From the IMG/VR virus record IMGVR_UViG_3300027736_000034, positions 1 to 64,000 of that record: a stretch of DNA of 64,000 nucleotides. One strand, 5' to 3'. The translations under genes and the position numbers were made by a program. The notes under the pieces were generated by a model, which was not told where the DNA came from, did no database searches, and saw only the letters and a program-made list of their open reading frames with translations. Positions within the stretch are counted from its first letter, which is position 1. The number at the start of each line of letters is the position of its first letter. This document shows, piece by piece, positions 6,104-42,625 of the stretch. The DNA is from a virus.

Positions 6104-7630
6104 ATGCCTAGAATTAATATGGATGGGGTAACAATTGACGGTGGTATAGATTTTAATTCAAGTATAGAATTAAACACCGTTGAATATCTTATAGTCGCAG
6201 GTGGAGGCGGAGGTGGGTCACGCTATGGAGGTGGCGGCGGTGCAGGCGGCGTGATACTAAGCAGTTATACATATACTCCCGGAACATTTCTTATCAGTGT
6301 GGGTGCAGGTGGTGCAGGCAATACATCTAAGATAGCATTAGGCGCCGGCGATAACGGGGAGAATTCAGAAATAATAAACCCAGATACATCAACTCTTGGC
6401 TTAGCGTATGGCGGAGGCGGTGGCGCTGGTGGACCGCCCAATGATAACAACGACGGCAATAACGGTGGTTCTGGTGGCGGTGGTATTCCACTTAACTACC
6501 CGGGCACAGGTACAGCTGGTCAAGGTAATGATGGTGGCAATGTATACTCGGGCTATACAATGTTTAGAAGTGCCGGTGGGGGAGGTGCAGGTGCACCCGG
6601 AAGTAGCGATACTTCTACTGGTGGCAGCGCAGGTGGTATAGGTATATCTTCAACTATTGCTGAGGGTGATGTAAAATACTATGGTGGAGGTGGCGGCGGT
6701 GGTGTTCTATTAGGATCAGGTGCAGGCGGCGATGGAGGTGCAGGTGGAACAGGTGGCGGAGGCAAAGGCGCTGGAACTAGCCCCGGACATGATGGTATAG
6801 CAGCCACTGGTGGCGGTGGCGGTGGTGGCGGCGGAACTGCTGGTGTAGATGGTGGTTATAACGGCGGAAGTGGCGTCGTAATTATGAAATATAGCGCATC
6901 TCATAGTGAAGCAATTACTACAGGTAGCCCAACTGTAATTTACAATGGTCTATCTTGGATATACAAATGGACTAGTTCTGGATCAATAACATTCCCTACA
7001 TTACCAACAAGTATTAGTGGATTAGTTGGCTGGTATGATATGAATTCAATATCGCTAGAAGATTCAGAATGGATAGATATCTCATCTAATCACAATGACG
7101 CAACAGTTAGTGGTGTGACCATCTCAGCAGCACCAGCCGGACATGCTTCTACTAATATAACTTCAGCAATAACAGGTACACCAAGCGATACTATATTATG
7201 GCCAGCATCTGTATTGCCAAGCACATATACATTGTTACATGTAACAAGATATGCCGGCGCAGCATCAAATAGAATATATCAAGCATACAATACAAATTGG
7301 TTGTCAGGACATCAAGGTGGTGATTCTGGACAATATTATCATAATGGATGGATGACTGACCATTCAACTGATTATTATGGAAACGATTGGTTTATTACCA
7401 CAGATCAGAATACTACTGTAAGAACAAATGGAATTGTTAGATCAACAACTGGTTCAGGATCACCGTCATACGGACGATTAAGTATCAACAACAATCCTGG
7501 GTTGTTTCCAGAATACAGTAATTTCCAAACAGTAGAATGCATTGTATATAATAGAACATTAACTACACCCGAATGTGAATTAATTGAACAATATTTGTCT
7601 GGAAAGTATGGAATAGTATTGGGAACATGA
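6104..7630 (+). CDS. Glycine-rich protein with C-terminal LamG/lectin-like domain
   Basis: Gly-rich N-part like 4879..5730; C-terminal GLVGWYD...IVYNRTL...IEQYLSGKYG. Confidence 0.7.
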   Translation: MPRINMDGVTIDGGIDFNSSIELNTVEYLIVAGGGGGGSRYGGGGGAGGVILSSYTYTPGTFLISVGAGGAGNTSKIALGAGDNGENSEIINPDTSTLGLAYGGGGGAGGPPNDNNDGNNGGSGGGGIPLNYPGTGTAGQGNDGGNVYSGYTMFRSAGGGGAGAPGSSDTSTGGSAGGIGISSTIAEGDVKYYGGGGGGGVLLGSGAGGDGGAGGTGGGGKGAGTSPGHDGIAATGGGGGGGGGTAGVDGGYNGGSGVVIMKYSASHSEAITTGSPTVIYNGLSWIYKWTSSGSITFPTLPTSISGLVGWYDMNSISLEDSEWIDISSNHNDATVSGVTISAAPAGHASTNITSAITGTPSDTILWPASVLPSTYTLLHVTRYAGAASNRIYQAYNTNWLSGHQGGDSGQYYHNGWMTDHSTDYYGNDWFITTDQNTTVRTNGIVRSTTGSGSPSYGRLSINNNPGLFPEYSNFQTVECIVYNRTLTTPECELIEQYLSGKYGIVLGT

Positions 7631-19630: not shown

Positions 19631-20197
19631 ATGCTAATAAACAAAGATTCGTTCACTCACGGTCAGATTACTAGTAAAATTTGGCTATGTGAAGAATTAG
19701 AGAATTTACAGTGGTCTAGTGATACTACTCACATTTATGGAGGGTGGTACGCTATGACCGCTTTTTTATTATTCAGTCGCGGAAAATTCAAAGTTAATTA
19801 TATTGAAAGTTTTGATATTGATCCAGAATGCGAATCAGTTGCAAGAATGATTAACGACAACTGGGTAATACAACGTAAATTCAACGCACATACTAGAGAT
19901 TGCAGTAACATAGTTGAAGGCAATTGTGATTTGGTTATTAACACTTCTACTGAACATTTTCCGTCTACGGATTGGTTTAATAATATTCCTGCAGGAACTA
20001 GAATAATACTTCAGGGTAACAATATGTTACATGATGATCATTTTGTGCATAGTGAATCATTGTCTAGTTTTATAAAGACTTACCCGTTATCTAAGATTGA
20101 TTATTTAGGCTCTAAAAAATTTGATTATGCTGTGCCAGAAAATGATGATTATGTTGATTGGGCTTTTACAAGATACATGATTATAGGTACCAAATGA
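19631..20197 (+). CDS. Class I SAM-dependent methyltransferase-like protein
   Basis: IYGGWY, SFDID, INTSTEH motifs. Confidence 0.6.
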   Translation: MLINKDSFTHGQITSKIWLCEELENLQWSSDTTHIYGGWYAMTAFLLFSRGKFKVNYIESFDIDPECESVARMINDNWVIQRKFNAHTRDCSNIVEGNCDLVINTSTEHFPSTDWFNNIPAGTRIILQGNNMLHDDHFVHSESLSSFIKTYPLSKIDYLGSKKFDYAVPENDDYVDWAFTRYMIIGTK

Positions 20198-20829
20198 GTT
20201 TAATTAAAACTAGATTGATAGTAGATTGCGGCCCGGATAGTGATAGAAGAACACTAAACATTTGGCTACATCCGTTACGGAAAAGAGTTGGAGTTCTTGT
20301 CAGTGGAGGGATGGATAGTGCTTTGCTTTATTATTTGCTAGTAAAGTTAAATGCTGAAGCAGGATTCACACATAAAATTACTCCCTACACTATTCTTAGA
20401 AAAGATGGATCTCCCCAATACGCCCCTGACATAATAAATTATGTACATGATTTATTTAATTTACCTTTGACAACGACTGAAATAGTAGGTGACCCTACGC
20501 TGTCTGAAAATATGCAAGTAGAAACAGGTGCTACGGATGCTTTGAAAAAGTCAAATATATTATACATGGGACTGATTGAAGAATTGGCTGCATTCACTAT
20601 AGGATGGAGAGATCCTATTAAATGGAACAACTCTGATTCTCGGTTATACCCACTTAAAGATTTAAACAAAAGTCATATTGTAGATTTAATTGTTCAGTTT
20701 AAACAAGAAAAATTATTTGAATTAACACATAGTTGTAACATGCCTGGAAAATGTTATAATTGTAACGGCTGCAATGAACGTAGTTGGGGGTTTGAACAAA
20801 TGGGCTACGCAGACCCCGGTATATTTTAA
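20194..20829 (+). CDS. QueC-like PP-loop ATPase
   Basis: SGGMDS PP-loop and THSC...CxxCxxCxER. Confidence 0.7.
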   Translation: MSLIKTRLIVDCGPDSDRRTLNIWLHPLRKRVGVLVSGGMDSALLYYLLVKLNAEAGFTHKITPYTILRKDGSPQYAPDIINYVHDLFNLPLTTTEIVGDPTLSENMQVETGATDALKKSNILYMGLIEELAAFTIGWRDPIKWNNSDSRLYPLKDLNKSHIVDLIVQFKQEKLFELTHSCNMPGKCYNCNGCNERSWGFEQMGYADPGIF

Positions 20830-21654: not shown

Positions 21655-21733
21655 TCCGTAGAATCCGAGCATGGTGCACGGACTTGACTGTTAATCAATG
21701 ACTAGCTGGGATCGTTACCCAGATACGGAGCCA
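21655..21733 (+). tRNA. trnN: tRNA-Asn(GTT), atypical T-loop
   Basis: Loop CT-GTT-AA; T-loop ATCGTTA; CCA. Confidence 0.75.
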
Positions 21734-21856
21734 AATTTCTCGTCAGTCTGAGGGGCTAAACCGCCTCAGTTGCATAAGCAAGGTACATGGATGTTTGTAC
21801 ATATTACAGGTGAAAGTCCTGTCGGGAGAAGATATATGCCATGAGGCACCAGTTTT

Positions 21857-21915
21857 AGGATAGCAACAGCAAATCAAAAAAACTTTCAACGTTTATGAAA
21901 AAAAATGCTATCCTG
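21857..21915 (+). ncRNA. CAGCAA-stem small RNA copy 1 (putative Y-like RNA)
   Basis: AGGATAGCA-ACAGCAA...TGCTATCCT-G closing stem; internal hairpin TTTCA/TGAAA. Confidence 0.65.
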
Positions 21916-21924
21916 TTTTATTAT

Positions 21925-22756: not shown

Positions 22757-22792
22757 ATTATTTAATTGTTTTATTTTGTATATAAATACCGT

Positions 22793-23323
22793 ATGACATA
22801 TACTGATACTTTTCAAATTCCTTACTTTATTGTTCCGTTGACAGAACACAGGGAGATTAAAGAAACTTTGTTAAAAATAATTAATGAAGATGAAATACAG
22901 GGGAAAATTGATACGGGCCAAAATATTTACAAAACAGATTATTTTGCACAAGAAAAAACCAGATTGTATTATAAAATAATAATGCCATTGATAGATAAAT
23001 CTCTAAGAAAATTTTCTGATATAATTGAATATGACAAACTAGACTCTAATCCTTCAGTTATCTGGTATCAACAATATAATAAATTGCATTATCATAGTTG
23101 GCACCATCATGGAAATTCTAGGTGGTCTATAGTGTATTATGTAGAACTTGCCGATGATTCTCCGGGAACACAATTTAAAGATTGTATTACATCAAAATAT
23201 ATCTCCCCAAATGTCAAAGAAGGTGATTTATTAATATTTCCTAGTTGGATGTTACATCGTTCTCCGCCGAATCTTTCTCAAAAAAGAAAAACAATAATTT
23301 CTTGTAATTTTTCTATAAAGTAA
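22793..23323 (+). CDS. Putative 2OG-Fe(II) oxygenase
   Basis: WHHH, IFPSWMLH, RKTIISCNF. Confidence 0.75.
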   Translation: MTYTDTFQIPYFIVPLTEHREIKETLLKIINEDEIQGKIDTGQNIYKTDYFAQEKTRLYYKIIMPLIDKSLRKFSDIIEYDKLDSNPSVIWYQQYNKLHYHSWHHHGNSRWSIVYYVELADDSPGTQFKDCITSKYISPNVKEGDLLIFPSWMLHRSPPNLSQKRKTIISCNFSIK

Positions 23324-24708: not shown

Positions 24709-25269
24709 ATGGCTGTTCTAGCACTAGATATTTCAGGAGTTCCAAGACAATGGATCTCGCACGATGACGCAATTACATACCACGCTAAAGATGCGGTAGC
24801 ATGGAGCATGGGTGAAATTGTAGCAAAGTATCGTGGGGGTATGCAAAACTCCGGCGATCAAAGTTATATTGAAACTTCTAGTATTATCGCTGTGAAAGGT
24901 CACGGATTCAACCCTTACAAACATGCTAATGTAGCATTGACTAACAGAACATTGTTTGGTCGGGACCGGCAAGTGTGTGCGTATTGTGGTAAACACCACG
25001 CTAACTACCATCACTTAAGCAGGGACCATATTGTCCCTAAATTTTTAGGTGGACAAAACACTTGGATGAACGTTGTTACTGCATGTAAAGATTGTAATAG
25101 TAAGAAGGGTCATAAGACATTGAAAGAAGCCCGCATGGAACTTCTGTACACACCTTATGTCCCAAACCATTACGAAAATATGATTTTACAACATCGTAAC
25201 ATTCTTGCTGACCAAATGGATTACTTGTTAGCAGGTGTTCCAAAGCACAGTAGAATTCTACTAAACTAG
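24709..25269 (+). CDS. HNH endonuclease
   Basis: CAYCG, DHIVP...GG...W.NVVTAC..CN..K. Confidence 0.9.
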   Translation: MAVLALDISGVPRQWISHDDAITYHAKDAVAWSMGEIVAKYRGGMQNSGDQSYIETSSIIAVKGHGFNPYKHANVALTNRTLFGRDRQVCAYCGKHHANYHHLSRDHIVPKFLGGQNTWMNVVTACKDCNSKKGHKTLKEARMELLYTPYVPNHYENMILQHRNILADQMDYLLAGVPKHSRILLN

Positions 25270-26406: not shown

Positions 26407-26481
26407 CTGTCGTTCGTATAATGGATAATACAGGGGATTTCTACTCCCTAAATAGCAGTTCGATTCTGTTACGACGGACCA
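26407..26481 (+). tRNA. trnR: tRNA-Arg(TCT)
   Basis: GGGGA-TT-TCT-AC-TCCCT; A20 in D loop. Confidence 0.88.
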
Positions 26482-27775: not shown

Positions 27776-28405
27776 ATGTTGCATAATATTTTTGGTCATG
27801 AAGTCTATATCAAAGAATTTGATAATTTGAATAAATTTGAACCTTATAAAAAACTTTTTACTAGGCAATTAATTAATTTAGGGCATGTGTATGTAGATGA
27901 TTCCACACATCACCCGGATATTCAGAAAAAGGGAAATTCGGTAAGTTCAGTAGCCAATGTTACAGATTTTCAAGGTCTTGTTGGATATTCCTTATTGAAA
28001 AAGGTACTTGAACCTGCAATTATAGAAGCTAGGTCATCCATGTTTAAAAACATAGAAATAAAAAAAATTAGTTTAACCAGGACCTGGCATAATATTAATT
28101 ATAAAAATTCTTATGTAGTATCACATTCACATATTAGACCATCTGATCAGGTAGCAAACCCTAATAGAAGGATGCAAGTTTGTATATTGTATCTTGAAGC
28201 ACCTGAGGGTTCAGGGAAACTTGCTATTATTGATGATGATCGTGAAAATTTACGTTGTACTGATTTTGATCAAGACAAAGTACATTATATAACAGTTAAA
28301 CCTAACATGTTAATTTGCCATGGTAGTGATGTAAATCATGCAGTTTCGGAACATCTTTCTGATGAAAGAAGAATATGTGTTATATTTGAATATATAATAG
28401 AATAA
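27776..28405 (+). CDS. Putative 2OG-Fe(II) oxygenase
   Basis: SHSH...HAVSEH...RRICVIF. Confidence 0.7.
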   Translation: MLHNIFGHEVYIKEFDNLNKFEPYKKLFTRQLINLGHVYVDDSTHHPDIQKKGNSVSSVANVTDFQGLVGYSLLKKVLEPAIIEARSSMFKNIEIKKISLTRTWHNINYKNSYVVSHSHIRPSDQVANPNRRMQVCILYLEAPEGSGKLAIIDDDRENLRCTDFDQDKVHYITVKPNMLICHGSDVNHAVSEHLSDERRICVIFEYIIE

Positions 28406-28804: not shown

Positions 28805-29296
28805 ATGTATGAATTTTTAAATGATAGTATTTTTTTAGAAAATAGAAAAAATAAAAAACATCATTTTTTTAAAAATGTTAATTTATGTCCGCCCACGTGG
28901 GATGATATAATAAAAGAACTAAACAACAGTGTTGTAGAGAAACGACACGTAAAGATATTATCTAATTCAGGATTTGTTTTCCACCAAGGAAAAAATGTTC
29001 CCGGGATTTCTGAATTATGTGAGAAAATATCGTGCTTAGATAAATCAGTATCCTGCACTGCACATTGTTATATTTCTTTCTTAGAAACAGCAGGCACGTT
29101 TGGTACACATAAAGATACAGCCGATGTTTTATTCTGGCAAATGATTGGAAAAACAAAATGGATCATTAATGATAATGTTACTGTAACGTATGAATTAGAA
29201 CCAAATGATTTTATATATGTACCAAGAAAAATGTATCATACAGTAATACCGCTAACACCTAGGGCAGGAATGTCATTTGGGTTAGATTATAACTGA
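28805..29296 (+). CDS. JmjC/cupin-type oxygenase
   Basis: HKD...WQMIGKTKW...YVPRKMYH. Confidence 0.75.
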   Translation: MYEFLNDSIFLENRKNKKHHFFKNVNLCPPTWDDIIKELNNSVVEKRHVKILSNSGFVFHQGKNVPGISELCEKISCLDKSVSCTAHCYISFLETAGTFGTHKDTADVLFWQMIGKTKWIINDNVTVTYELEPNDFIYVPRKMYHTVIPLTPRAGMSFGLDYN

Positions 29297-29463: not shown

Positions 29464-30084
29464 ATGTCAGATTTTGTAGTAGTTGATAATTTTTTTCATA
29501 AGTTTGAAGTCCATGGACTGAGTAAACTTATATTTAACAACGGAGAAATAAATTGGAAATACGGCTATAAAACCACATATAATAGCGACACTAATGCATC
29601 CTTAAAGGAAATAGAAAGACTATTTATAAAAAATGATAGTAATATAAATGTAGAAAATGACAGAATGCTTACTCACCCGTTAATACTACACAACACTGTA
29701 GTTAGTGATATGTATAATAAATTTGCTAATATTAAGCCACTCATTGAGAGTAAATTTGAAGTGAATATAAAATACATTCAAGAAATGAAAATAAATTTTT
29801 CATTGCCCGGAGAAATAAAGCCTGATCAATATTTAATGCCTCATTATGATAATCATAAATTGGGTTCAAAAACTATGATTTTATATATGAATGATTGTGA
29901 AGGAGATACTATTTTGTTTAATGAGTATTATGAAGGTTATCATAATACAGATAAAAAAACAATCTATAAAAGATACTCTCCAAAAATAAATAAAGCAATT
30001 ATGTTTGATGCTAGAAGGTATCATTCTAATTCATTTTCTACTAAAAATATTAGAGCAGTAATTGTTGCTAATATTATAATATAG
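29464..30084 (+). CDS. Putative 2OG-Fe(II) oxygenase
   Basis: PHYD, LYMND..GDT, FD...YH, R.VI. Confidence 0.75.
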   Translation: MSDFVVVDNFFHKFEVHGLSKLIFNNGEINWKYGYKTTYNSDTNASLKEIERLFIKNDSNINVENDRMLTHPLILHNTVVSDMYNKFANIKPLIESKFEVNIKYIQEMKINFSLPGEIKPDQYLMPHYDNHKLGSKTMILYMNDCEGDTILFNEYYEGYHNTDKKTIYKRYSPKINKAIMFDARRYHSNSFSTKNIRAVIVANIII

Positions 30085-30708: not shown

Positions 30709-30826
30709 TTGACAACAAACCTAAAATGTTGTATAATAGATTTTTTAAACGAAAGAGGTAATGACATGAAACGTGCTAAACGATAGTGTCATTCTTAAAC
30801 CCCATGTATTGGTTTAGGGATGGCAC
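30709..30826 (+). promoter_or_regulatory. Promoter, MKRAKR minigene and 16-bp hairpin
   Basis: TTGACA-17-TATAAT; GAGGT RBS; ATG 30766..TAG 30786; hairpin 30786..30826. Confidence 0.55.
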
Positions 30827-30852
30827 ATTAAAGAAAATTTAATACTGCTTAT

Positions 30853-30926
30853 CCCTCATAAACATTAAGGTGATGTAACCGGCTCTTAACCGGTAAAACA
30901 CGGATCGTTACCGTGATGTGGGACCA
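30853..30926 (+). tRNA. trnK: tRNA-Lys(CTT), atypical
   Basis: CT-CTT-AA; T-loop ATCGTTA. Confidence 0.8.
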
Positions 30927-30932
30927 ATATAT

Positions 30933-31006
30933 GGGGCTATAATTCAAAGGTAGAATAGTCGGCTTTTAACCGATCTATCCGAGTTCGAATCTCGGTGGCC
31001 CTACCA
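30933..31006 (+). tRNA. trnK: tRNA-Lys(TTT)
   Basis: CT-TTT-AA; CCA. Confidence 0.93.
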
Positions 31007-31067
31007 TATAAAAACATATTGTCTGCGTAAACCGTGGATCCGTAGTAGATAGTGTGTTTCTATATGG
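31004..31067 (+). ncRNA. Long-stem RNA cassette C
   Basis: Same arms as 22158..22260; 23 bp identical at the 3' arm. Confidence 0.5.
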
Positions 31068-31083
31068 TAATAAATAAAGAATA

Positions 31084-31428
31084 ATGGAAGAAATGTATAT
31101 GATTGAAAATAGACGAGGACGGCTAAGATACTATCTTAGAGATGCTAAACTAAGGGCTAAGAAAAAATCATTACCCTTTGACTTAGATTTAAATTTTTTA
31201 GATTCTATCGCCACTGACAAATGCCCAATTTTTGGGACGCCATTTATTTTTGGAGAAGCAAATAAGTTGTCGCCTACTTCTCCGTCTTTAGATAGAATTA
31301 TTCCATCTAAGGGTTATGTTAAGGACAATGTTGTTTTTATTAGTCATAGGGCAAATACAATAAAGCATAATGTAGTTGGGCCGGATGACTTATATAAAGT
31401 AGCCGATTGGTTACGTAGTAAAATATAG
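31084..31428 (+). CDS. Putative His-Me finger endonuclease-like protein
   Basis: CPIFG...PSLDRI.P.KGY...NV..IS..AN..K. Confidence 0.65.
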   Translation: MEEMYMIENRRGRLRYYLRDAKLRAKKKSLPFDLDLNFLDSIATDKCPIFGTPFIFGEANKLSPTSPSLDRIIPSKGYVKDNVVFISHRANTIKHNVVGPDDLYKVADWLRSKI

Positions 31429-31434
31429 AATAAT

Positions 31435-31521
31435 GGAAGATAGGCTGCATGGCGCGGACACGGTCTTGAAAACCGTCCCACTGTTTACACGGTGACAGTT
31501 CGATTCTGTTATCTTCCTCCA
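31435..31521 (+). tRNA. trnS: tRNA-Ser(TGA)
   Basis: CT-TGA-AA; long arm. Confidence 0.9.
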
Positions 31522-31526
31522 AGTTA

Positions 31527-31587
31527 AGGATCGGTTCAGCAAATAAATACATTCAACTTTTAATTGAAACCGTAAAAAACGATCCTG
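31527..31587 (+). ncRNA. CAGCAA-stem small RNA copy 2 carrying a Lys(UUU) anticodon stem-loop
   Basis: AGGATCGGTT-CAGCAA...AACGATCCT-G; TTCAA-CTTTTAA-TTGAA. Confidence 0.7.
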
Positions 31588-31609
31588 TTATATCTAGTGT
31601 AAATAGACA

Positions 31610-32221
31610 ATGAATCATATTGACAAATTAAAAAGTAAACTTGACTCTGTTAAAACAACAGAAAGAATTTTACCCACCCATGAAATAGAACAAAAATATA
31701 TAGATAAAATATATGAATTGGATTTATCTTCTGAAATAGATTCAGATACAATTGTAAATTTAATTTATAAGTTCAAAGAACAATATCCAATATCAAATAC
31801 ATCAAATCTTTTTTCTTGGCATAGTAATTATGATACTCATAGAAAAACATCAGATTTTAACACATTGATAAATGTAATAGAGAATAAATTAAAGTTAATT
31901 GAGACTAATGATAGAGATGGAGCTGTAAATAAAGTTTTAGATAGTTGGGTGGCAATATATAATAAAACAGAATATGCACAATGGCATAGCCATTCAGATA
32001 ATAGTGGTAGTAGATGGTCAGTGGTTTATTATGCAAAAGCAGAAGAAAATTGTGCTCCTATAGTTTTTAAAGATTTAGAAATAGTGCCTAAAACAAATAT
32101 GTTATTAGTATTTCCTTCCCGAGCCTATCATATGGTAAGAAAATCACAATCTGATATAGAAAGAATAATCTTTGCAGCAAACCTAGATATAGTTTATATA
32201 AAAAATAAAATATCTCCCTAA
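31610..32221 (+). CDS. Putative 2OG-Fe(II) oxygenase
   Basis: WHSH, SVVYY, FPS...H.V, RII...N; stop overlaps tRNA-Trp 5' end. Confidence 0.75.
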   Translation: MNHIDKLKSKLDSVKTTERILPTHEIEQKYIDKIYELDLSSEIDSDTIVNLIYKFKEQYPISNTSNLFSWHSNYDTHRKTSDFNTLINVIENKLKLIETNDRDGAVNKVLDSWVAIYNKTEYAQWHSHSDNSGSRWSVVYYAKAEENCAPIVFKDLEIVPKTNMLLVFPSRAYHMVRKSQSDIERIIFAANLDIVYIKNKISP

Positions 32222-32285
32222 TGTAATGGCAGCATACCGGTCTCCAAAACCGTTAGTCAAGGTTCGAGTCCTTGGGGGGATGCCA
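32212..32285 (+). tRNA. trnW: tRNA-Trp(CCA)
   Basis: CT-CCA-AA; G73. Confidence 0.9.
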
Positions 32286-32299
32286 ACTAAATAGAATGT

Positions 32300-32920
32300 A
32301 TGTTCTACTATCAAACCAATTTTGATTTTTCACTTGCTTCTAAACAATATATAAAAAATATATATAAGCATAAGTTTAATCAAAATTACTATCATGACCT
32401 TGAATCAGAAAAACTGATATCACCTATCAGCCCGCCGGGTAGAGAAATAGTTAAGTTTCTATCAAAATATAATCTTAATATTATCTATCAAGGGATAATA
32501 GCATTCACTAGTAATAGTGATACTTGGTTTGAAGGTAATCCGCATGTTGATATAATGCGAATTAATAATGAACAAGTTCCAATAAGAACAAGATTCAATG
32601 TAATGATCGAGGGTAATATTGATGATACTATGTATTGGTGGAAAGATATTAGTTGGGGAAGCGAGCAATTAGTACAAAATAAATTTACACTTAAATCAGG
32701 TAGTACTTATGATTCATATAGTATCCCTGGTAATAGTACAAAAGAAAGATGGGATTATATGGGTGAGCCATCTGATAAAAAAGAAAGACTATTAAGCCCA
32801 AGTGCATTTGTAAGAACAGATTGCACACATACAGTAAATGTTTCCTCTGGTCCAAGACTAATAATCTCTGTAGCTTTTGCTGAAACATTTGATGATATAG
32901 TTAGTAGATTAAATAATTAA
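32300..32920 (+). CDS. Putative 2OG-Fe(II) oxygenase-like protein
   Basis: PHVD...HTV...PRLIISV. Confidence 0.6.
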   Translation: MFYYQTNFDFSLASKQYIKNIYKHKFNQNYYHDLESEKLISPISPPGREIVKFLSKYNLNIIYQGIIAFTSNSDTWFEGNPHVDIMRINNEQVPIRTRFNVMIEGNIDDTMYWWKDISWGSEQLVQNKFTLKSGSTYDSYSIPGNSTKERWDYMGEPSDKKERLLSPSAFVRTDCTHTVNVSSGPRLIISVAFAETFDDIVSRLNN

Positions 32921-32922
32921 CT

Positions 32923-33007
32923 GCCCTGGTGGCGAAATTGGTAGACGCACCAGATTTAGGTTCTGGCGCCGAAAGGCGTGTCGGTTCGAGTCCGACCTAG
33001 GGCACCA
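32923..33007 (+). tRNA. trnL: tRNA-Leu(TAG)
   Basis: TT-TAG-GT; long arm. Confidence 0.95.
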
Positions 33008-33065
33008 CAAAAACTCGCCTTGACTGATGGCGTATAATGAGATAAGTAATCAGTCAATAAATTTC

Positions 33066-33139
33066 GGGGGATTGATGTAATGGTAGCCTGGGACCTTTGC
33101 AAGGTTTTCGCAACAGTTCGATTCTGTTATCCTCCACCA
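33066..33139 (+). tRNA. trnA: tRNA-Ala(TGC)
   Basis: G3:U70; TT-TGC-AA. Confidence 0.85.
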
Positions 33140-33144
33140 ACTTT

Positions 33145-33257
33145 AGGATACTAACAGCAACATTTAACATTCCAAACTTTGGGTTGTGGGTTCAAGTCCC
33201 ATCAGTAGCAATACTGTAGATCAATGGTAGATCAAAAGTCGTTAAAAATGTATCCTG
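33145..33257 (+). ncRNA. CAGCAA-stem RNA copy 3 with circularly permuted tRNA-like domain (YrlA-type Y RNA)
   Basis: T arm GTGGG-TTCAAGT-CCCAT, closed acceptor CAGTA-GCAA-TACTG, then D arm GATC-AATGGTA-GATC, within AGGATAC/GTATCCT. Confidence 0.8.
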
Positions 33258-33265
33258 TTAAATAT

Positions 33266-33342
33266 GCGTGATTAGTTCAGCATGGAAGAACGCTACCCCG
33301 ACACGGTAGAGGTCAAAAGTTCAAATCTTTTATCACGCACCA
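33266..33342 (+). tRNA. trnV: tRNA-Val(GAC)
   Basis: CC-GAC-AC loop (C33). Confidence 0.85.
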
Positions 33343-33361
33343 TGAATACGATAAATAATTA

Positions 33362-33437
33362 CGCGGGAAGGGCCCGGTCACCGGCGAGGTCTCATAAGCC
33401 TTTGCAATCCTTGGTTCAAATCCAAGTCCCGCATCCA
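33362..33437 (+). tRNA. trnfM: Initiator-type tRNA-Met(CAT), atypical D arm
   Basis: CGCGGG start, C1:A72 mismatch, CT-CAT-AA. Confidence 0.75.
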
Positions 33438-34988: not shown

Positions 34989-35005
34989 CTCAGTGGTAGA
35001 GTGTC
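34979..35005 (+). pseudogene. Orphan 5' fragment of tRNA-Val (acceptor 5' strand and D arm)
   Basis: GCCTCGT-TA-ACTC-AGTGGTA-GAGT-G; complementary to ACGAGGT at 35634..35640. Confidence 0.7.
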
Positions 35006-35048
35006 TTTTTTGTTCAACTATGATAAATACTTGAGCAAGGAGATAATT

Positions 35049-35585
35049 ATGTACAACTGTAGTCAATGTGATAAAGAGTTTAGTAACCATAGAGCATTAA
35101 ATGCACACCAAATAGCGCATAAAGATAGAGCAAGTAGATATTCAATTGATAGAAAACAACCGGACTCTAAGTATAATACAATATTTAAATGTTTATGCTG
35201 TGAGAAAGAAATGAGATACAATCACGGAACAACAAATAAATTTTGTTCCATAGCATGTAATTCTAAATATCAATGGGAAAAGATATCAATTCCTAAAATT
35301 GAAAGCGGACAAGGTGGAAATTTAAAAAGGTATTTAAAAGAATTATTTGGGGATAAATGTTCTGAATGTGGACAAGAAGGTAATTGGAATAACAAGCCAC
35401 TTGTGTTACAATTAGATCATATAGACGGTGATAGTGATAATAACTACCCAAATAATGTAAGATTACTTTGTCCTAACTGCCACACTCAAACAGAGAATTT
35501 TGGTAGTAAAGGAAAAGGTAGTAGGTATAAGAAGGTAACTAAAAGAAATAGTTATTTAAGAGAATATAAGGCCTCGGTAGTTTAA
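35049..35585 (+). CDS. C2H2 zinc finger plus HNH endonuclease (putative homing endonuclease)
   Basis: CSQC...H...H; CSECG, LQLDHIDG...N..LLCPNCH; RBS AAGGAG. Confidence 0.9.
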   Translation: MYNCSQCDKEFSNHRALNAHQIAHKDRASRYSIDRKQPDSKYNTIFKCLCCEKEMRYNHGTTNKFCSIACNSKYQWEKISIPKIESGQGGNLKRYLKELFGDKCSECGQEGNWNNKPLVLQLDHIDGDSDNNYPNNVRLLCPNCHTQTENFGSKGKGSRYKKVTKRNSYLREYKASVV

Positions 35586-40998: not shown

Positions 40999-41109
40999 AG
41001 GATCGGTTCAGCAATTTAACCATTACTGGATGATGGGCAAAGATAACTTCAAGCCTATCAAGGTGAGTTTGGATTTCTCACTTGAATAAAAAAGTACAAA
41101 ACGATCCTG
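40999..41109 (+). ncRNA. CAGCAA-stem small RNA copy 4
   Basis: AGGATCGGTTCAGCAA...AACGATCCTG, identical ends to copy 2. Confidence 0.7.
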
Positions 41110-41120
41110 TTTTTTATATT

Positions 41121-41177
41121 AGGGTGCTTCCAGCAAATTTAAAAACTTTACTTGAAATCAAGCAAAACAGCACCCTG
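41121..41177 (+). ncRNA. CAGCAA-stem small RNA copy 5
   Basis: AGGGTGCT-TCCAGCAA...AGCACCCT-G. Confidence 0.7.
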
Positions 41178-41209
41178 TTGCAAACAATACTCACAGAAAG
41201 GAGAAAACT

Positions 41210-42625
41210 ATGCAATTCGCAAACGCAATACTAAACCAAGAGGCTCGTACCACTAATGGTATGAAGGCTCGTGAATCAACCGCTAACGCATGTGTTGATT
41301 TGTTCTATAACATCGGTGCAAGCCGTGGTAAGAACATCATCCCGCAATTCACAGCGGCTTATGTAGAAAATGCAGACCTAGCATTACGTATCGTCCAATG
41401 GGCACGTGATGTTCGTGGTGGTGCGGGTGAACGTGAATTGTTCCGTCAAGTCATGTTGCACTTGGAAAAGACTAACCCAGCTGATGCTGCTCGTCTTATG
41501 TCTAAGGTACCAGAACTTGGTCGTTTTGACGATTTGCTAGTTTTTCAAACTAAGGATATGAAGGCTAAGGCTTACACATTGCTTGGTGACTACTTGCGTC
41601 AAAATAACGGACTCGCTGCTAAGTGGACTCCGCGTAAGGGCAAGATCGCGGCTGAAATTCGTGACTTCTACGGTATGACTCCAAAGCAATATCGTAAGAC
41701 TCTTGTTGGTATGACTACTGTTGTTGAAACACAAATGTGTTCTAATGACTGGGATAACATCAACTACAGTCACGTTCCATCTGTAGCGCATAGTCGTTAC
41801 AAGAAGGCTTTCGGTCGTCATGGTACAACTTATGCTGAGTACATCACTAAGTTGGTTAAGGGTGAAGCAGGTGTGAAGATCAATGCTAACGCAATCTTCC
41901 CGCACGATGTGTTGAAGGGTCGTATCAGTGGATACGGTGCTACAACTTGGTCTAAGACTGAGTTGGATGCTATTGAAGCACAATGGAATGCATTGCCTAA
42001 CTACGTTGGTGACTCAAGCGTGTTGCCTCTAGTTGACGTTAGTGGCTCTATGACCTGCATTGCAGGGAAGAAGGGTTCTACTACTTGCCTAGAAATCGCA
42101 GTTAGCTTGGGATTGTATTTTGCTGATAAGAACAAGGGTAAGTTCAAGGACTGCTTCTTGACTTTCAGCGACAAGCCAAAGTTGTTGAACCTTAAGGGTT
42201 CAATCAACCAAAAGATTGACCAAATGGTCAGTTCTGATTGGGGTATGAGTACAAACCTACATGGTGCGTTCAATCAAATCCTTGACACTGCTGTTAAGAA
42301 CAAGGTATCACAAGCAGAAATGCCTGAAACTTTGATGATTTTCAGCGACATGCAATTTAACGCCTGCGTTAAGTATGATGACAGTGCAATGGAAATGATC
42401 GCACGTAAGTACGCCGAAGCAGGTTACGATTTGCCTAAGGTAGTTTTCTGGAACTTGAATGCTAGCGGAAACGCTCCAGTTGAGTTTGACAAGGGTGGTA
42501 CCGCTCTTGTGTCAGGATTCAGCCCAGCAATCGCTGCTAGCGTATTGGGTGCAGACCCAGATGCATTCTCGCCTGAAGCAATTATGCTTAAGGCCGTGAT
42601 GAATAGTCGCTACGATTTGGCGTAA
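41210..42625 (+). CDS. Ro60/TROVE-like helical domain plus vWA protein (DUF2828-type)
   Basis: RDVRGGAGERELF, GRFDDL, AAKWTPR; MIDAS DVSGSM, ST, FSDMQF; VFWNL, LVSGFSP. Confidence 0.8.
   Translation: MQFANAILNQEARTTNGMKARESTANACVDLFYNIGASRGKNIIPQFTAAYVENADLALRIVQWARDVRGGAGERELFRQVMLHLEKTNPADAARLMSKVPELGRFDDLLVFQTKDMKAKAYTLLGDYLRQNNGLAAKWTPRKGKIAAEIRDFYGMTPKQYRKTLVGMTTVVETQMCSNDWDNINYSHVPSVAHSRYKKAFGRHGTTYAEYITKLVKGEAGVKINANAIFPHDVLKGRISGYGATTWSKTELDAIEAQWNALPNYVGDSSVLPLVDVSGSMTCIAGKKGSTTCLEIAVSLGLYFADKNKGKFKDCFLTFSDKPKLLNLKGSINQKIDQMVSSDWGMSTNLHGAFNQILDTAVKNKVSQAEMPETLMIFSDMQFNACVKYDDSAMEMIARKYAEAGYDLPKVVFWNLNASGNAPVEFDKGGTALVSGFSPAIAASVLGADPDAFSPEAIMLKAVMNSRYDLA

What the first reader, a model, noticed from the sequence alone, without database searches (positions are those of the whole stretch)
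31527..31587. Isolated tRNA-Lys(UUU) anticodon stem-loop displayed on the CAGCAA handle: candidate anticodon-nuclease decoy
Seen: the cargo is a perfect 5-bp stem TTCAA/TTGAA with 7-nt loop CTTTTAA, identical to the anticodon loop of tRNA-Lys(TTT) at 30933. Known: tRNA-Lys(UUU) is the target of the anti-phage anticodon nuclease PrrC, and other defence nucleases also cut tRNA-Lys. Inference: a decoy or bait RNA that titrates or recruits such nucleases or repair enzymes.
Basis: partly seen in the sequence, partly recalled or inferred. Interest (0 to 1): 0.72.

Follow-up and report, generated by a model that had tools for sequence, protein, structure and literature searches.

The report
Anticodon-arm mimic on phage Y-like RNA
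A roughly 60-base phage RNA gene sitting in a tRNA operon displays a copy of a tRNA anticodon arm on a conserved stem that probably binds the phage's Ro60-like protein, which makes it a testable candidate bait for enzymes that read or cut tRNA anticodon loops.

Summary
Window 31527-31589 (+) reads: 7-bp terminal stem, unpaired CAGCAA, 3-bp helix, 5-bp/7-nt hairpin TTCAA-CTTTTAA-TTGAA, A-run, closing strand, GTT. The loop equals the anticodon loop of the window's tRNA-Lys(UUU).

It is not a chance hairpin. A covariance model found 41 distinct relatives in viral contigs, on 11 different handle stems. The hairpin stem covaries. 40 of 41 carry CTT-N-TAA, with N = T, C or G. These equal the commonest Lys(UUU), Arg(UCU) and Thr(UGU) anticodon loops of the same phages' tRNAs. 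Sister elements on the same handle carry whole tRNA-like bodies.

The handle goes with a Ro60-fold protein (DUF2828/DUF7788, window 41210-42625). 70 of 75 protein-anchored loci have a handle RNA just upstream.

So the element is a Y-RNA-like RNA with an anticodon-arm cargo. The Lys/PrrC-specific reading is not supported. A decoy function is possible but untested.

Weak points: the hairpin is thermodynamically marginal, and there is no direct expression evidence for this phage.

The scan noted the same kind of element before on other DNA (e1-5635555, e1-6009335).

The parts
31435..31521 (+). tRNA-Ser(tga). Its CCA end lies 5 nt (AGTTA) before the element, so the element is part of a tRNA operon transcript.
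   Evidence: ARAGORN; sequence. 127 of 291 handle elements in related loci start within 12 nt of a same-strand tRNA 3' end.
31527..31533 (+). 5' strand of the terminal 'handle' stem (AGGATCG); pairs with 31580-31586.
   Evidence: 100% paired in 29 sequences, with compensatory changes at 3 of 7 pairs. In 111 distinct model-aligned sequences, 6 of 7 pairs show compensatory changes (that alignment is fitted to the model).
31537..31542 (+). Invariant unpaired CAGCAA motif of the handle; candidate contact site for the Ro60-like protein.
   Evidence: Invariant in 29 of 29 sequences. Shared by all five copies in the genome and by elements upstream of DUF2828 genes in 70 of 75 loci. Protein binding is inferred, not shown.
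31548..31574 (+). Cargo: 3-bp helix TAC/GTA (31548-31550 with 31572-31574) enclosing the anticodon-arm mimic.
   Evidence: The A-U to G-C double change at the middle pair occurs in 3 of 29 sequences. The helix is part of the single-sequence MFE.
31552..31568 (+). Anticodon-arm mimic: stem TTCAA (31552-31556) / TTGAA (31564-31568), loop CTTTTAA (31557-31563) = C32 U33 U34 U35 U36 A37 A38 of tRNA-Lys(UUU).
   Evidence: The loop equals the tRNA-Lys(ttt) loop in 32 of 32 such tRNAs of the related loci.
31575..31589 (+). A-run, 3' strand of the handle stem (CGATCCT, 31580-31586) and conserved GTT tail.
30933..31006 (+). The phage's own tRNA-Lys(ttt), with the same 7-nt anticodon loop.
21857..21917 (+). 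Family copy E0. Same handle (AGGATAGC...GCTATCCT-GTT); the cargo hairpin has loop ACGTTTA, which is not anticodon-like.
   Evidence: 37.6 bits.
33145..33259 (+). Family copy E4. Handle plus a permuted tRNA-like cargo (T arm, D arm).
   Evidence: Rfam YrlA 43.7 bits, below the gathering score of 69.
40999..41111 (+). Family copy E2. Handle stem identical to E1, with a long cargo; follows a sigma70-like promoter.
41121..41179 (+). Family copy E3. Ends about 30 nt before the Ro60-like gene.
   Evidence: The same arrangement is seen in 53 of 75 protein-anchored loci, where the element ends 18-38 nt before the start codon.
41210..42625 (+). Ro60-like protein gene (471 aa; Pfam DUF2828 + DUF7788; TROVE-like helical ring plus a vWA domain with a conserved D-x-S-x-S); the presumed partner of the handle.
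   Evidence: Pfam. AlphaFold2 pLDDT 91.9. The top 12 listed Foldseek hits are all Ro60/Rsr/TROVE, E 1.8e-8 to 6.5e-6. Invariant D276, S278, S280.

Best explanation
Window 31527-31589 is the gene of a roughly 60-nt stable non-coding RNA. It belongs to a large phage family of Y-RNA-like RNAs.

The RNA is transcribed as part of a tRNA operon. It starts 5 nt after the CCA of tRNA-Ser, and is presumably cut out by the tRNA-processing machinery (inferred).

Its two ends form a 7-bp stem that covaries. Next to the stem lie an invariant unpaired CAGCAA, an A-run and a UGUU tail. This 'handle' is most likely the binding site of the phage's Ro60-fold protein (DUF2828/DUF7788, window 41210-42625). That is inferred from near-obligate gene adjacency, by analogy with Ro60/Rsr and Y RNAs.

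The interior is an anticodon-arm mimic: a 5-bp stem and a 7-nt loop C-U-U-N-U-A-A. N is the only variable loop letter, and it sets a Lys(UUU), Arg(UCU) or Thr(UGU) 'identity'. In this window it is Lys.

The particle would therefore present a free anticodon arm without the rest of the tRNA. Like the effector-tethering module of known Y RNAs, the arm would bring a factor that recognises anticodon loops to the Ro-like protein. That factor could be a host anticodon nuclease, in which case the RNA is a decoy or sponge; I put this at about 0.25. Or it could be a tRNA repair or modification enzyme, which I put at about 0.2. The partner is not identified.

Shown: the structure, its conservation, the identity of the loop with real anticodon loops, and the genomic link of the handle to the Ro-like gene. 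Inferred: RNA processing, protein binding and the biological role.
For: (1) Structure and selection. The hairpin and handle covary: 98.1% of cells are paired against at most 43.1% when slid, 0 of 500 shuffles reach the observed values, and 3 of 5 hairpin pairs are compensatory.

(2) Loop. Of 41 distinct covariance-model hits at 53.8 bits or more, from 53 hits in about 1.48 Mb, 40 contain CTT[T/C/G]TAA. They sit on 11 different handle stems.

(3) The three loop variants are letter for letter the commonest anticodon loops of the same phages' tRNAs: Lys(ttt) 32 of 32, Arg(tct) 39 of 52, Thr(tgt) 31 of 58.

(4) Sister elements on the identical handle carry tRNA-like bodies. L009 hits Rfam tRNA at 53.9 bits. 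L003 scores 26 bits, and its anticodon arm UUUGA-CUUAUAA-UCAAA nearly equals the hairpin of the arm-only element L001:212.

(5) Handle and Ro-like gene. In loci found through the protein alone, 70 of 75 have a handle RNA within 400 nt upstream, and 53 of these end 18-38 nt before the start codon. In 4 of the 75 (L136, L168, L190, L193) that RNA is the anticodon-arm type. 5 of 5 large related records encode the protein.

(6) The protein has the Ro60 fold.

(7) Position. The element starts 5 nt after a tRNA CCA here, and 127 of 291 family elements lie within 12 nt of a tRNA end.

(8) Cultured phages. An arm-type element (TTCAA-CTTTTAC-TTGAA) lies upstream of the homolog in Synechococcus phage BUCT-ZZ01. 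CAGCAA handle RNAs lie beside the homolog in E. coli phage SUSP2 and Listeria phage LMTA-57.

(9) Literature, from passages read. A Ro60-like protein of coliphage Bas63 counters the Ppl defence system (10.1101/2024.10.10.617714). The most highly transcribed regions of Listeria phage CKA15 lie within 2 kb upstream of its Rsr-like gene (PMC12282133). Isolated anticodon stem-loops are cut by an activated Cas13b (PMC13692257).
Against: The hairpin is thermodynamically marginal. Its mean energy is -0.7 kcal/mol, and it appears in the single-sequence MFE in 16 of 29 sequences. RNAalifold predicts only the handle stem. Folding of this copy alone is not better than shuffles.

There is no direct evidence of transcription, processing or protein binding for this phage. 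One contig of an RNA-library run covers 31517-31593, but DNA carry-over cannot be excluded.

E1 lies 9.6 kb from the Ro-like gene.

AU-rich loops are favoured by the AT-rich composition.

The homolog sample is biased. The first 117 loci were fetched through the exact 16-mer of this handle.

One complete relative (G001) shows no arm-type hit (that tool's first-look filter is rough).

RNA-repair ligases are mostly absent from five large relatives: Rnl2 0 of 5, RtcB 0 of 5, Rnl1 1 of 5. This weakens the repair-recruitment branch.

The phage's own tRNA-Lys has the same loop, so the mimic does not distinguish host from phage tRNA.
Confidence: 0.6

Rival explanations
1. One reading: a decoy for a tRNA-Lys(UUU)-specific anticodon nuclease such as PrrC or PARIS AriB. 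The RNA would be cut, or would bind the nuclease, in place of tRNA-Lys.
For: The loop is identical to the tRNA-Lys(UUU) anticodon loop. UUU is the commonest variant, in 18 of 41. tRNA-Lys is a known target of PrrC and AriB (passages in PMC11455837 and PMC13692257).
Against: 23 of 41 relatives do not have the Lys loop: UCU 9, UGU about 10 plus variants. Some phages carry two elements with different middle letters. The counter-measures described in the passages I read are nuclease-insensitive replacement tRNAs, not decoys. No nuclease assay is possible with these tools.
Confidence: 0.08
2. The hairpin is a structural or recognition module unrelated to tRNA mimicry. It could be a protein-binding loop, or a kissing loop that pairs with a complementary RNA loop, for example the anticodon loops GAA, GGA or GCA. 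The resemblance to anticodon loops would then be convergent, or a by-product of AT-richness.
For: The stem is all A-U/G-C-poor and weak. Six of the seven loop letters are invariant, as expected of a sequence-specific binding site. CT-NNN-AA is simply the commonest loop frame, in 834 of 1579 tRNAs.
Against: Sister cargos on the same handle are full tRNA-like bodies with D, anticodon and T arms, and with nearly the same arm sequence. The only variable loop letter is the middle 'anticodon' position, and all three variants match real tRNA loops of the same phages.
Confidence: 0.15
3. A relic or a cis element. Either a decayed remnant of a tRNA-like Y RNA with no function of its own, or a processing or spacer signal of the tRNA operon, or a leader of the downstream 2OG-oxygenase gene.
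For: It sits between a tRNA and an ORF. It is weakly folding. It is absent from one complete relative.
Against: The loop is invariant, and compensatory stem changes are seen across 41 distinct sequences on 11 handle stems. The neighbours differ between relatives: after tRNA-Ser, Ile, Arg, Trp, Asp and others, and followed by a tRNA instead of the ORF. In 4 of 75 loci it is the RNA directly upstream of the Ro-like gene.
Confidence: 0.07
4. A minimal 'armless' tRNA that still decodes. The 7-bp terminal stem would be the acceptor stem, with replacement loops for the D and T arms.
For: The stem is 7 bp like an acceptor stem, and the anticodon arm has canonical geometry.
Against: There is no CCA, and GTT follows the stem. 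The same handle carries cargos with no tRNA features at all (E2, E3). A canonical tRNA with the same anticodon is present in the same partial locus in 25 of 51 cases, including this window. Neither ARAGORN nor Rfam calls it a tRNA.
Confidence: 0.03

Closest known systems
Bacterial and phage Y RNAs of the YrlA type with Ro60/Rsr (Chen et al. 2014, PMC4201824; Rfam RF02553)
   Same: A small RNA encoded next to a Ro60-fold protein gene. A terminal stem formed by the 5' and 3' ends, with a conserved purine-rich motif on the 5' side. A second module that mimics tRNA. Occurrence in phages. One copy in this window (E4) hits the YrlA model at 43.7 bits.
   Different: The protein is the DUF2828/DUF7788 branch. 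It has no Pfam TROVE hit and is Ro60-like by fold only. The conserved motif is CAGCAA, not GNCGAAN0-1G (passage read). E1 has no T or D arm and instead carries an anticodon arm, the very part that YrlA lacks. E1 gives no YrlA hit. The family is multi-copy, with interchangeable cargos.
D. radiodurans Yrn1 Y RNA
   Same: It is described as having a possible 'anticodon arm' with a 5-bp stem (passage in PMC4201824), and it tethers Rsr to an effector (PNPase).
   Different: Its loop has 6 nt rather than 7, and no anticodon-loop identity is reported. E1's loop is a letter-perfect 7-nt anticodon loop that is conserved across relatives.
Phage replacement tRNAs that resist anticodon nucleases (T5 tRNA-Lys against PARIS; van den Berg et al. 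2023)
   Same: They are phage-encoded, lie in tRNA arrays, and concern the same anticodon loops targeted by defence nucleases (passages).
   Different: Those are complete, chargeable tRNAs with altered anticodon stem-loops, and they replace the cut host tRNA. E1 is not a tRNA, and it keeps the canonical loop.
Ro60-like gp130 of coliphage Bas63 (PhageMaP preprint 10.1101/2024.10.10.617714)
   Same: A phage Ro60-fold protein encoded next to a tRNA array. The authors guess that some 'tRNA genes' are Y RNAs. It is experimentally a counter to a defence system, Ppl (passage). Felix O1-like coliphages carry homologs of the window's protein at about 39% identity, with CAGCAA RNAs beside them.
   Different: No RNA partner was identified there. 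That gp130 is the DUF2828 homolog rests on my recollection that Bas63 is a Felixounavirus, not on a call. No anticodon-arm cargo was seen in the one coliphage locus I read (SUSP2).
Dictyostelium Class I RNAs (Rfam RF01414; Kjellin et al. 2021, PMC7919456)
   Same: About 60 nt. A short covarying stem joining the 5' and 3' ends, with a conserved 5' G. An unpaired conserved motif directly after the 5' strand that contains CAGCAA in the Rfam consensus. A variable interior. A 3' CUGU tail whose C pairs with the 5' G.
   Different: They are eukaryotic, with a Pol-type promoter element (DUSE), and the known binder is an RRM protein. The Rfam scores of E1 (18.9) and E3 (24.8) are below the gathering score of 41.5. 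Homology is not shown.

Membership tests
Y RNA, YrlA type (Rfam RF02553) | Reaches the curated Rfam gathering score (69 bits). | tested here: not met
   E1 gives no YrlA match even at E up to 10 in a 98-nt search. The sister copy E4 scores 43.7 bits.
Y RNA, YrlA type (Rfam RF02553) | tRNA-like domain with T arm and D arm. | tested here: not met
   The E1 cargo is only a 3-bp helix plus one 5-bp/7-nt hairpin. T and D arms are present in E4 and in relatives.
Y RNA, YrlA type (Rfam RF02553) | 5' motif GNCGAAN0-1G, proposed as the Rsr contact site (PMC4201824, passage read). | tested here: not met
   The invariant motif here is CAGCAA, in the same position relative to the terminal stem.
Y RNA in the broad sense (an RNA partner of a Ro60-fold protein) | Encoded beside a Ro60 ortholog gene. 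| tested here: met
   Family level: 70 of 75 protein-anchored loci have a handle RNA within 400 nt upstream. In this window E2 and E3 abut the gene, and E1 lies 9.6 kb upstream.
Y RNA in the broad sense (an RNA partner of a Ro60-fold protein) | Physically bound by the Ro60-like protein. | not testable with these tools
   Needs RIP/CLIP or a gel-shift assay.
tRNA (Rfam RF00005 / ARAGORN) | Cloverleaf with acceptor stem, D, anticodon and T arms, and a CCA or discriminator context. | tested here: not met
   Not called by ARAGORN or by Rfam. Only the anticodon arm is present.
tRNA anticodon arm (as a mimic) | 5-bp stem and 7-nt loop with pyrimidine-32, U33, purine-37, conserved in relatives. | tested here: met
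   37 of 41 distinct relatives have the 5-bp (or 4 of 5) / 7-nt geometry with C-U-U-N-U-A-A. The loops equal real tRNA loops of the same phages.
Dictyostelium Class I RNA (Rfam RF01414) | Reaches the gathering score (41.5 bits). | tested here: not met
   E1 scores 18.9 bits (E 0.14 in 98 nt) and E3 scores 24.8 bits.
Ro60 / TROVE protein (for the presumed partner, 41210-42625) | Pfam TROVE domain by sequence. | tested here: not met
   There is no PF05731 match in the 87.1-kb record. Pfam instead gives DUF2828 plus DUF7788.
Ro60 / TROVE protein (for the presumed partner, 41210-42625) | Ro60 fold: a helical-repeat ring plus a vWA domain with a MIDAS motif. | tested here: met
   AlphaFold2 pLDDT 91.9. 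The 12 best listed Foldseek PDB hits are all Ro60/Rsr/TROVE over about 500-550 columns, TM 0.44-0.64. Invariant D276-x-S278-x-S280.
Anticodon-nuclease decoy (a functional class; no curated family) | Is bound or cut by an anticodon nuclease and protects tRNA or the phage. | not testable with these tools
   Needs cleavage, competition and infection assays.

The most novel reading that the evidence does not exclude
The phage Ro60-like protein, together with its CAGCAA-handle RNAs, is a modular decoy platform. Each RNA displays a different piece of tRNA: anticodon arms of Lys, Arg or Thr identity, T/D elbows, or whole tRNA-like bodies. The set would intercept anticodon nucleases and other tRNA-targeting defences.

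The same handle architecture is seen in Dictyostelium Class I RNAs: a stem starting with a 5' G, an unpaired CAGCAA, and a 3' CUGU. This would make these an ancient, cross-domain family of Ro-like RNPs, and would point to the long-sought partner and function of the Class I RNAs.
Probability: 0.12. Interest if true: 0.92.

Novelty: new variant of a known kind. Interest (0 to 1): 0.7.

Why it matters
Phage Ro60-like proteins are widespread. Homologs of this one occur in 701 cultured phage records, and more than 561 viral contig loci encode a relative. One such protein has been shown to counter a defence system. Their RNA partners have only been guessed at.

This element gives a concrete RNA family, defined by sequence and structure, with a simple handle and interchangeable cargos. 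It also includes a subtype whose cargo is a bare anticodon arm with a selectable 'anticodon'.

That makes two open questions directly testable. What do phage Ro-like RNPs bind? And do phages answer tRNA-cutting defences with baits as well as with replacement tRNAs?

Cultured systems exist for these tests: Synechococcus phage BUCT-ZZ01, Felix O1-like coliphages, and P100-like Listeria phages.

Tried and rejected
Nearby protein as anchor. The search for related loci with the downstream 2OG-oxygenase ORF (31610-32221) found no relative in viral contigs: 8 pattern matches, none confirmed.

Close cultured relatives. A megablast of 30800-33400 against cultured phages found only tRNA-Leu matches, in 28 records. 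A blastn of the 63-nt element found nothing.

Rfam. There is no family at gathering score for E1. The weak hits to Dictyostelium snoRNA DdR5, a CRISPR repeat and STnc540 were judged chance.

PDB by sequence for the 471-aa protein. Only a chance capsid hit, E 0.3.

Replacement-tRNA idea. The arm would stand in for a missing tRNA. I rejected this as a general rule: a same-anticodon tRNA is present in 25 of 51 locus/anticodon cases.

RNA-repair context. Rnl2 was found in 0 of 5 large relatives, RtcB in 0 of 5, and Rnl1 in 1 of 5. An annotated RNA ligase lies near the homolog in Serratia phage BF, and a tRNA-splicing ligase lies near it in Listeria phage LMTA-57. The link is therefore occasional, not constant.

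Expression. 12 runs held small shares of the stretch (at most 0.13 of the sampled words). I laid four RNA-library runs, X5, X8, X9 and X10, all kept as contigs. The ORF bins 31081-31354 and 31629-31902 had no cover in X5 and X9, while the tRNA bins and the E1 bin had cover. This cannot be read as expression, because relatives may lack the ORFs and DNA may be present in the libraries.

Eukaryotic homologs. A search for longer homologs found 23 proteins at E up to 1e-5; the named ones are fungal DUF2828 proteins. It could not tell whether Dictyostelium has one. The ESM Atlas gave only viral DUF2828 clusters.

Papers. Searches for 'DUF2828', anticodon nuclease + decoy, anticodon stem-loop + mimic and Ro-like + Y RNA + phage found no description of the CAGCAA handle or of an anticodon-arm Y RNA. 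Supplements were closed. The supplementary tables of Chen et al. 2014, which list the phage YrlA RNAs, may bear on overlap with this family.
Full report
WHAT IS THERE

The window is part of an 87.1-kb IMG/VR virus record that CheckV estimates at 24% complete. It carries 34 tRNA genes on the + strand between 21452 and 35867. The genes are driven by sigma70-like promoters, some of which show up as repeats.

The finding lies 5 nt after the CCA end of tRNA-Ser(tga), which occupies 31435-31521. It reads AGGATCG-GTT-CAGCAA-ATAAA-TAC-A-TTCAA-CTTTTAA-TTGAA-ACC-GTA-AAAAA-CGATCCT-GTT, at 31527-31589.

The outer seven bases pair with 31580-31586. Inside them lie a 3-bp helix and a perfect 5-bp stem with a 7-nt loop. 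The loop CTTTTAA is the same seven letters as the anticodon loop of the window's tRNA-Lys(ttt) at 30933-31006.

IS IT MORE THAN CHANCE?

Taken alone the sequence is unimpressive. The 81-nt stretch folds no better than shuffles (z -0.37). The hairpin is worth only about -0.7 kcal/mol.

The loop identity is unlikely, though. Of 100,000 shuffles of the 37-nt cargo, 5,959 gave any 5-bp/7-nt hairpin. Only 220 gave a YU-NNN-RA loop, and only 31 gave a loop equal to one of the window's 34 anticodon loops.

The decisive evidence is comparative. Of its 131 matches, 117 have the closing strand within 260 nt.

I aligned 29 distinct elements with the same cargo type. I chose them by their 3' flank and length, then by eye, which is a possible bias. 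In this alignment 98.1% of cells are paired, against at most 43.1% when partners are slid. 7 of 15 pairs changed on both sides, and 0 of 500 shuffles reached the observed values. 3 of the 5 hairpin pairs are compensatory, with four pair types at the middle pair.

A covariance model built from this alignment was run over the window and 197 viral-contig loci, about 1.48 Mb in all. It gave 53 hits at 53.8 bits or more, which are 41 distinct sequences on 11 different handle stems. There is a clear score gap down to other cargo classes, which score about 25-51 bits.

The script found the loop in a 5-bp (or 4 of 5) / 7-nt hairpin as CTTTTAA in 18, CTTCTAA in 9 and CTTGTAA in 9. One more (L042) reads CTTGA-CTTGTAA-TCAAA by eye. 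Three carry the same heptamer inside an 8- or 9-nt loop. One has CTTGAAA.

So six of the seven loop letters are fixed, and only the middle 'anticodon' letter varies.

Against this, RNAalifold predicts only the handle stem on the same alignment. The hairpin appears in the single-sequence minimum-energy fold of 16 of 29 sequences.

IS IT AN ANTICODON ARM?

Three things say yes.

First, the three loop variants are letter for letter the commonest anticodon loops of the real tRNAs in the same loci. These are tRNA-Lys(ttt) CTTTTAA in 32 of 32, tRNA-Arg(tct) CTTCTAA in 39 of 52, and tRNA-Thr(tgt) CTTGTAA in 31 of 58.

Second, the same handle carries whole tRNA-like bodies in other elements. L009 hits the Rfam tRNA model at 53.9 bits with a broken acceptor stem. 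L003 scores 26 bits, and the model's anticodon arm aligns to UUUGA-CUUAUAA-UCAAA. That is nearly the hairpin of the arm-only element L001:212, TTTGA-CTTCTAA-TCAAA.

Reading the list by eye, I counted eleven such standard-order tRNA-like cargos. Their loops read UCU (4), UGU, UAU, CAU, CUU, GCA, UCA and UCC. Other cargos have the permuted T-arm/D-arm order of YrlA, as does copy E4 in this window.

Third, some phages carry two arm-only elements with different middle letters: UCU and UGU in L004, L031, L099 and L105. This looks like diversification of identity.

The arm is not a stand-in for a missing tRNA. A canonical tRNA with the same anticodon is present in the same partial locus in 25 of 51 cases, including this window.

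THE HANDLE AND ITS LIKELY PARTNER

The genome has five handle elements, all on the + strand: 21857, 31527, 33145, 40999 and 41121. The last two lie in tandem directly before ORF 41210-42625.

That ORF is 471 aa and matches Pfam DUF2828 plus DUF7788. It has no Pfam TROVE match. An AlphaFold2 model built on 65 sequences has pLDDT 91.9. All 12 listed Foldseek PDB hits at E up to 6.5e-6 are Ro60, Rsr or TROVE structures aligned over the whole length, including the Ro60 of Thermus phage phiLo. A D-x-S-x-S motif is invariant.

I then fetched 80 viral loci through the protein alone. 75 of them have at least 150 nt of upstream DNA. 70 of those 75 have a strict handle element within 400 nt upstream, and in 53 it ends 18-38 nt before the start codon. 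Three of the five misses (L138, L142, L191) are near-variants by eye.

In this genome the same strict scan gave three likely false hits in 174 kb of both strands. In 4 of the 75 loci (L136, L168, L190, L193) the RNA directly upstream is the anticodon-arm type.

5 of 5 large related records, two of them 97% or more complete and about 340-355 kb long, encode the protein.

This is the gene arrangement that defines Ro60/Rsr and Y RNAs. Chen et al. 2014 place the proposed Rsr contact, GNCGAAN0-1G, at the same place relative to the terminal stem (passage read). Here the motif is CAGCAA.

Binding of the handle by the protein is therefore a strong inference, but it is not shown.

PROCESSING AND EXPRESSION

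127 of 291 family elements start within 12 nt of a same-strand tRNA 3' end, typically after a 5-nt RTTTW spacer. Many are followed by the next tRNA after a few bases. They would therefore be released from tRNA operon transcripts. The enzymes that would do this are not known.

For this phage the only expression hint is weak. A 391-nt contig in an RNA-library run (X5) covers 31517-31593 in a relative that lacks the downstream ORF.

In cultured phages the picture is better, though indirect. The family's handle RNAs stand beside the homolog in four cases I read:

- Synechococcus phage BUCT-ZZ01 has three in tandem, one with the arm TTCAA-CTTTTAC-TTGAA.
- Escherichia phage SUSP2 has AGACC...CAGCAA...GGTCTGG elements in its tRNA array.
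- Listeria phage LMTA-57 has three in tandem, 80-340 nt upstream of the gene.
- For the related Listeria phage CKA15, a multi-omics paper reports that the three most highly transcribed regions of the genome lie within 2 kb upstream of its Rsr-like gene, and that the protein is found in virions. The authors suggest Y RNAs (PMC12282133, passages read). I could not map their coordinates onto the handle RNAs.

HOW IT MOST LIKELY WORKS

Known Y RNAs bind Ro60 through the terminal stem and use their other module to tether an effector.

By the same logic, E1 would load the phage Ro-like protein with a free anticodon arm of Lys identity. The arm would recruit or occupy a factor that reads anticodon loops. 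Two branches are open.

(a) Decoy or sponge for host anticodon nucleases. Several defence systems cut tRNA anticodon loops. At least one nuclease, an activated Cas13b, cuts isolated anticodon stem-loops (PMC13692257, passage). A Ro60-like protein of coliphage Bas63 is an experimentally shown counter to a defence system, Ppl (preprint passage).

(b) Recruitment of a tRNA repair or modification enzyme. An RNA ligase or RtcB gene lies near the homolog in Serratia phage BF and Listeria phage LMTA-57. But ligases are mostly absent from five large relatives.

One further pattern: the fixed letters U36-A37-A38 with a free middle letter fit the anticodon loops of tRNAs that read ANN codons. I note this from general knowledge, not from a test.

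I put the Y-like RNA with anticodon-arm mimicry at about 0.6. Within it, I put a decoy role at about 0.25, and a strictly Lys/PrrC-specific decoy at under 0.1.

COMPARISON WITH WHAT IS KNOWN, AND NOVELTY

Three things are in print. Phage Ro-like proteins have been described. tRNA-mimicking Y RNAs next to TROVE genes in 22 phages are reported in PMC4201824. The guess that phage 'tRNA genes' or abundant transcripts near Ro-like genes are Y RNAs appears in passages I read.

My searches and Rfam 15 did not find any of the following:

- the CAGCAA handle;
- its pairing with the DUF2828 branch;
- its modular cargos;
- an arm-only cargo with a conserved, identity-bearing 7-nt anticodon loop.

E1 fails the tested membership criteria for YrlA, tRNA and the Dictyostelium Class I family. 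I rate it a new variant of a known kind. Supplements were closed, so overlap with the phage RNAs listed in Chen et al.'s supplementary tables cannot be excluded.

SIDE OBSERVATION

Rfam's Dictyostelium Class I RNA model weakly matches E3 (24.8 bits) and E1 (18.9 bits), against a gathering score of 41.5. The published description matches the handle feature for feature. The shared features are: about 60 nt; a covarying terminal stem with an invariant 5' G; an unpaired conserved motif right after it that contains CAGCAA in the Rfam consensus; a variable interior; and a 3' CUGU whose C pairs with the 5' G (PMC7919456, passages). This is a lead, not a result.

EARLIER NOTES OF THIS SCAN

Notes on other genomes describe the same handle with a Thr-type arm (e1-5635555) and arrays upstream of a DUF2828 gene (e1-6009335). 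I tested these claims myself, as described above.

Noticed in passing
window 33145-33259: Family copy E4 carries a permuted tRNA-like cargo (T arm, hairpin, D arm). It hits Rfam YrlA at 43.7 bits, below the gathering score of 69. It lies between tRNA-Ala and tRNA-Val.
   Followed up: partly
window 40999-41111; also L001:2038, L008, L057 and others: Copy E2 has a cargo of about 90 nt with a strongly conserved inner hairpin GTGAGTTTGGATTTCTCAC. It recurs in many relatives on several handles. No family was assigned.
   Followed up: no
window about 21660-21852: Upstream of copy E0 there are T-arm-like and ...GGCACCA-ending stretches that ARAGORN does not call as tRNAs (repeat D14 at 21709-21734). 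They may be further unconventional tRNA-like RNAs.
   Followed up: no
window 22766-23323, 27776-28405, 28805-29296, 29464-30084, 31610-32221: Five ORFs scattered among the tRNA genes match Pfam oxygenase families. Four match 2OG-Fe(II) oxygenase families, two of those below Pfam's cut-off, and one matches JmjC. They may be RNA or tRNA-modifying hydroxylases.
   Followed up: no
window 24709-25269 and 35001-35585: HNH endonuclease ORFs lie inside the tRNA array (Pfam HNH_5 / HNH). The ORF at 31084-31428, next to the element, has no Pfam hit.
   Followed up: no
window 31527-31589 and 41121-41179, compared with Rfam RF01414: The handle (a stem starting with a 5' G, unpaired CAGCAA, 3' CUGU, about 60 nt) resembles Dictyostelium Class I RNAs, which are reported as unique to dictyostelids. 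Whether dictyostelids have a DUF2828 protein could not be checked.
   Followed up: partly
L020:about 6800-6900 (the element starting AGGAAGC): A tRNA-like cargo on a handle has the loop CTTCAAC, that is, a UCA (opal-reading) 'anticodon'. Others read GCA, UCC, CUU and CAU.
   Followed up: no
L198 (Serratia phage BF) and L201 (Listeria phage LMTA-57): An annotated RNA ligase lies two genes upstream of the Ro-like gene in phage BF. A tRNA-splicing ligase (RtcB-type by annotation) lies about 1.3 kb downstream in LMTA-57. In Listeria phage CKA15 the Ro-like protein was detected in purified virions (PMC12282133).
   Followed up: partly
window 20158-20829: An ORF with a C-terminal match to QueC (queuosine/archaeosine pathway) lies just before the tRNA array.
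   Followed up: no
window 26407-26481: The phage's own tRNA-Arg(tct) has the unusual anticodon loop TTTCTAC (U32, C38). The arm-only mimics of Arg type in relatives keep the canonical CTTCTAA.
   Followed up: no
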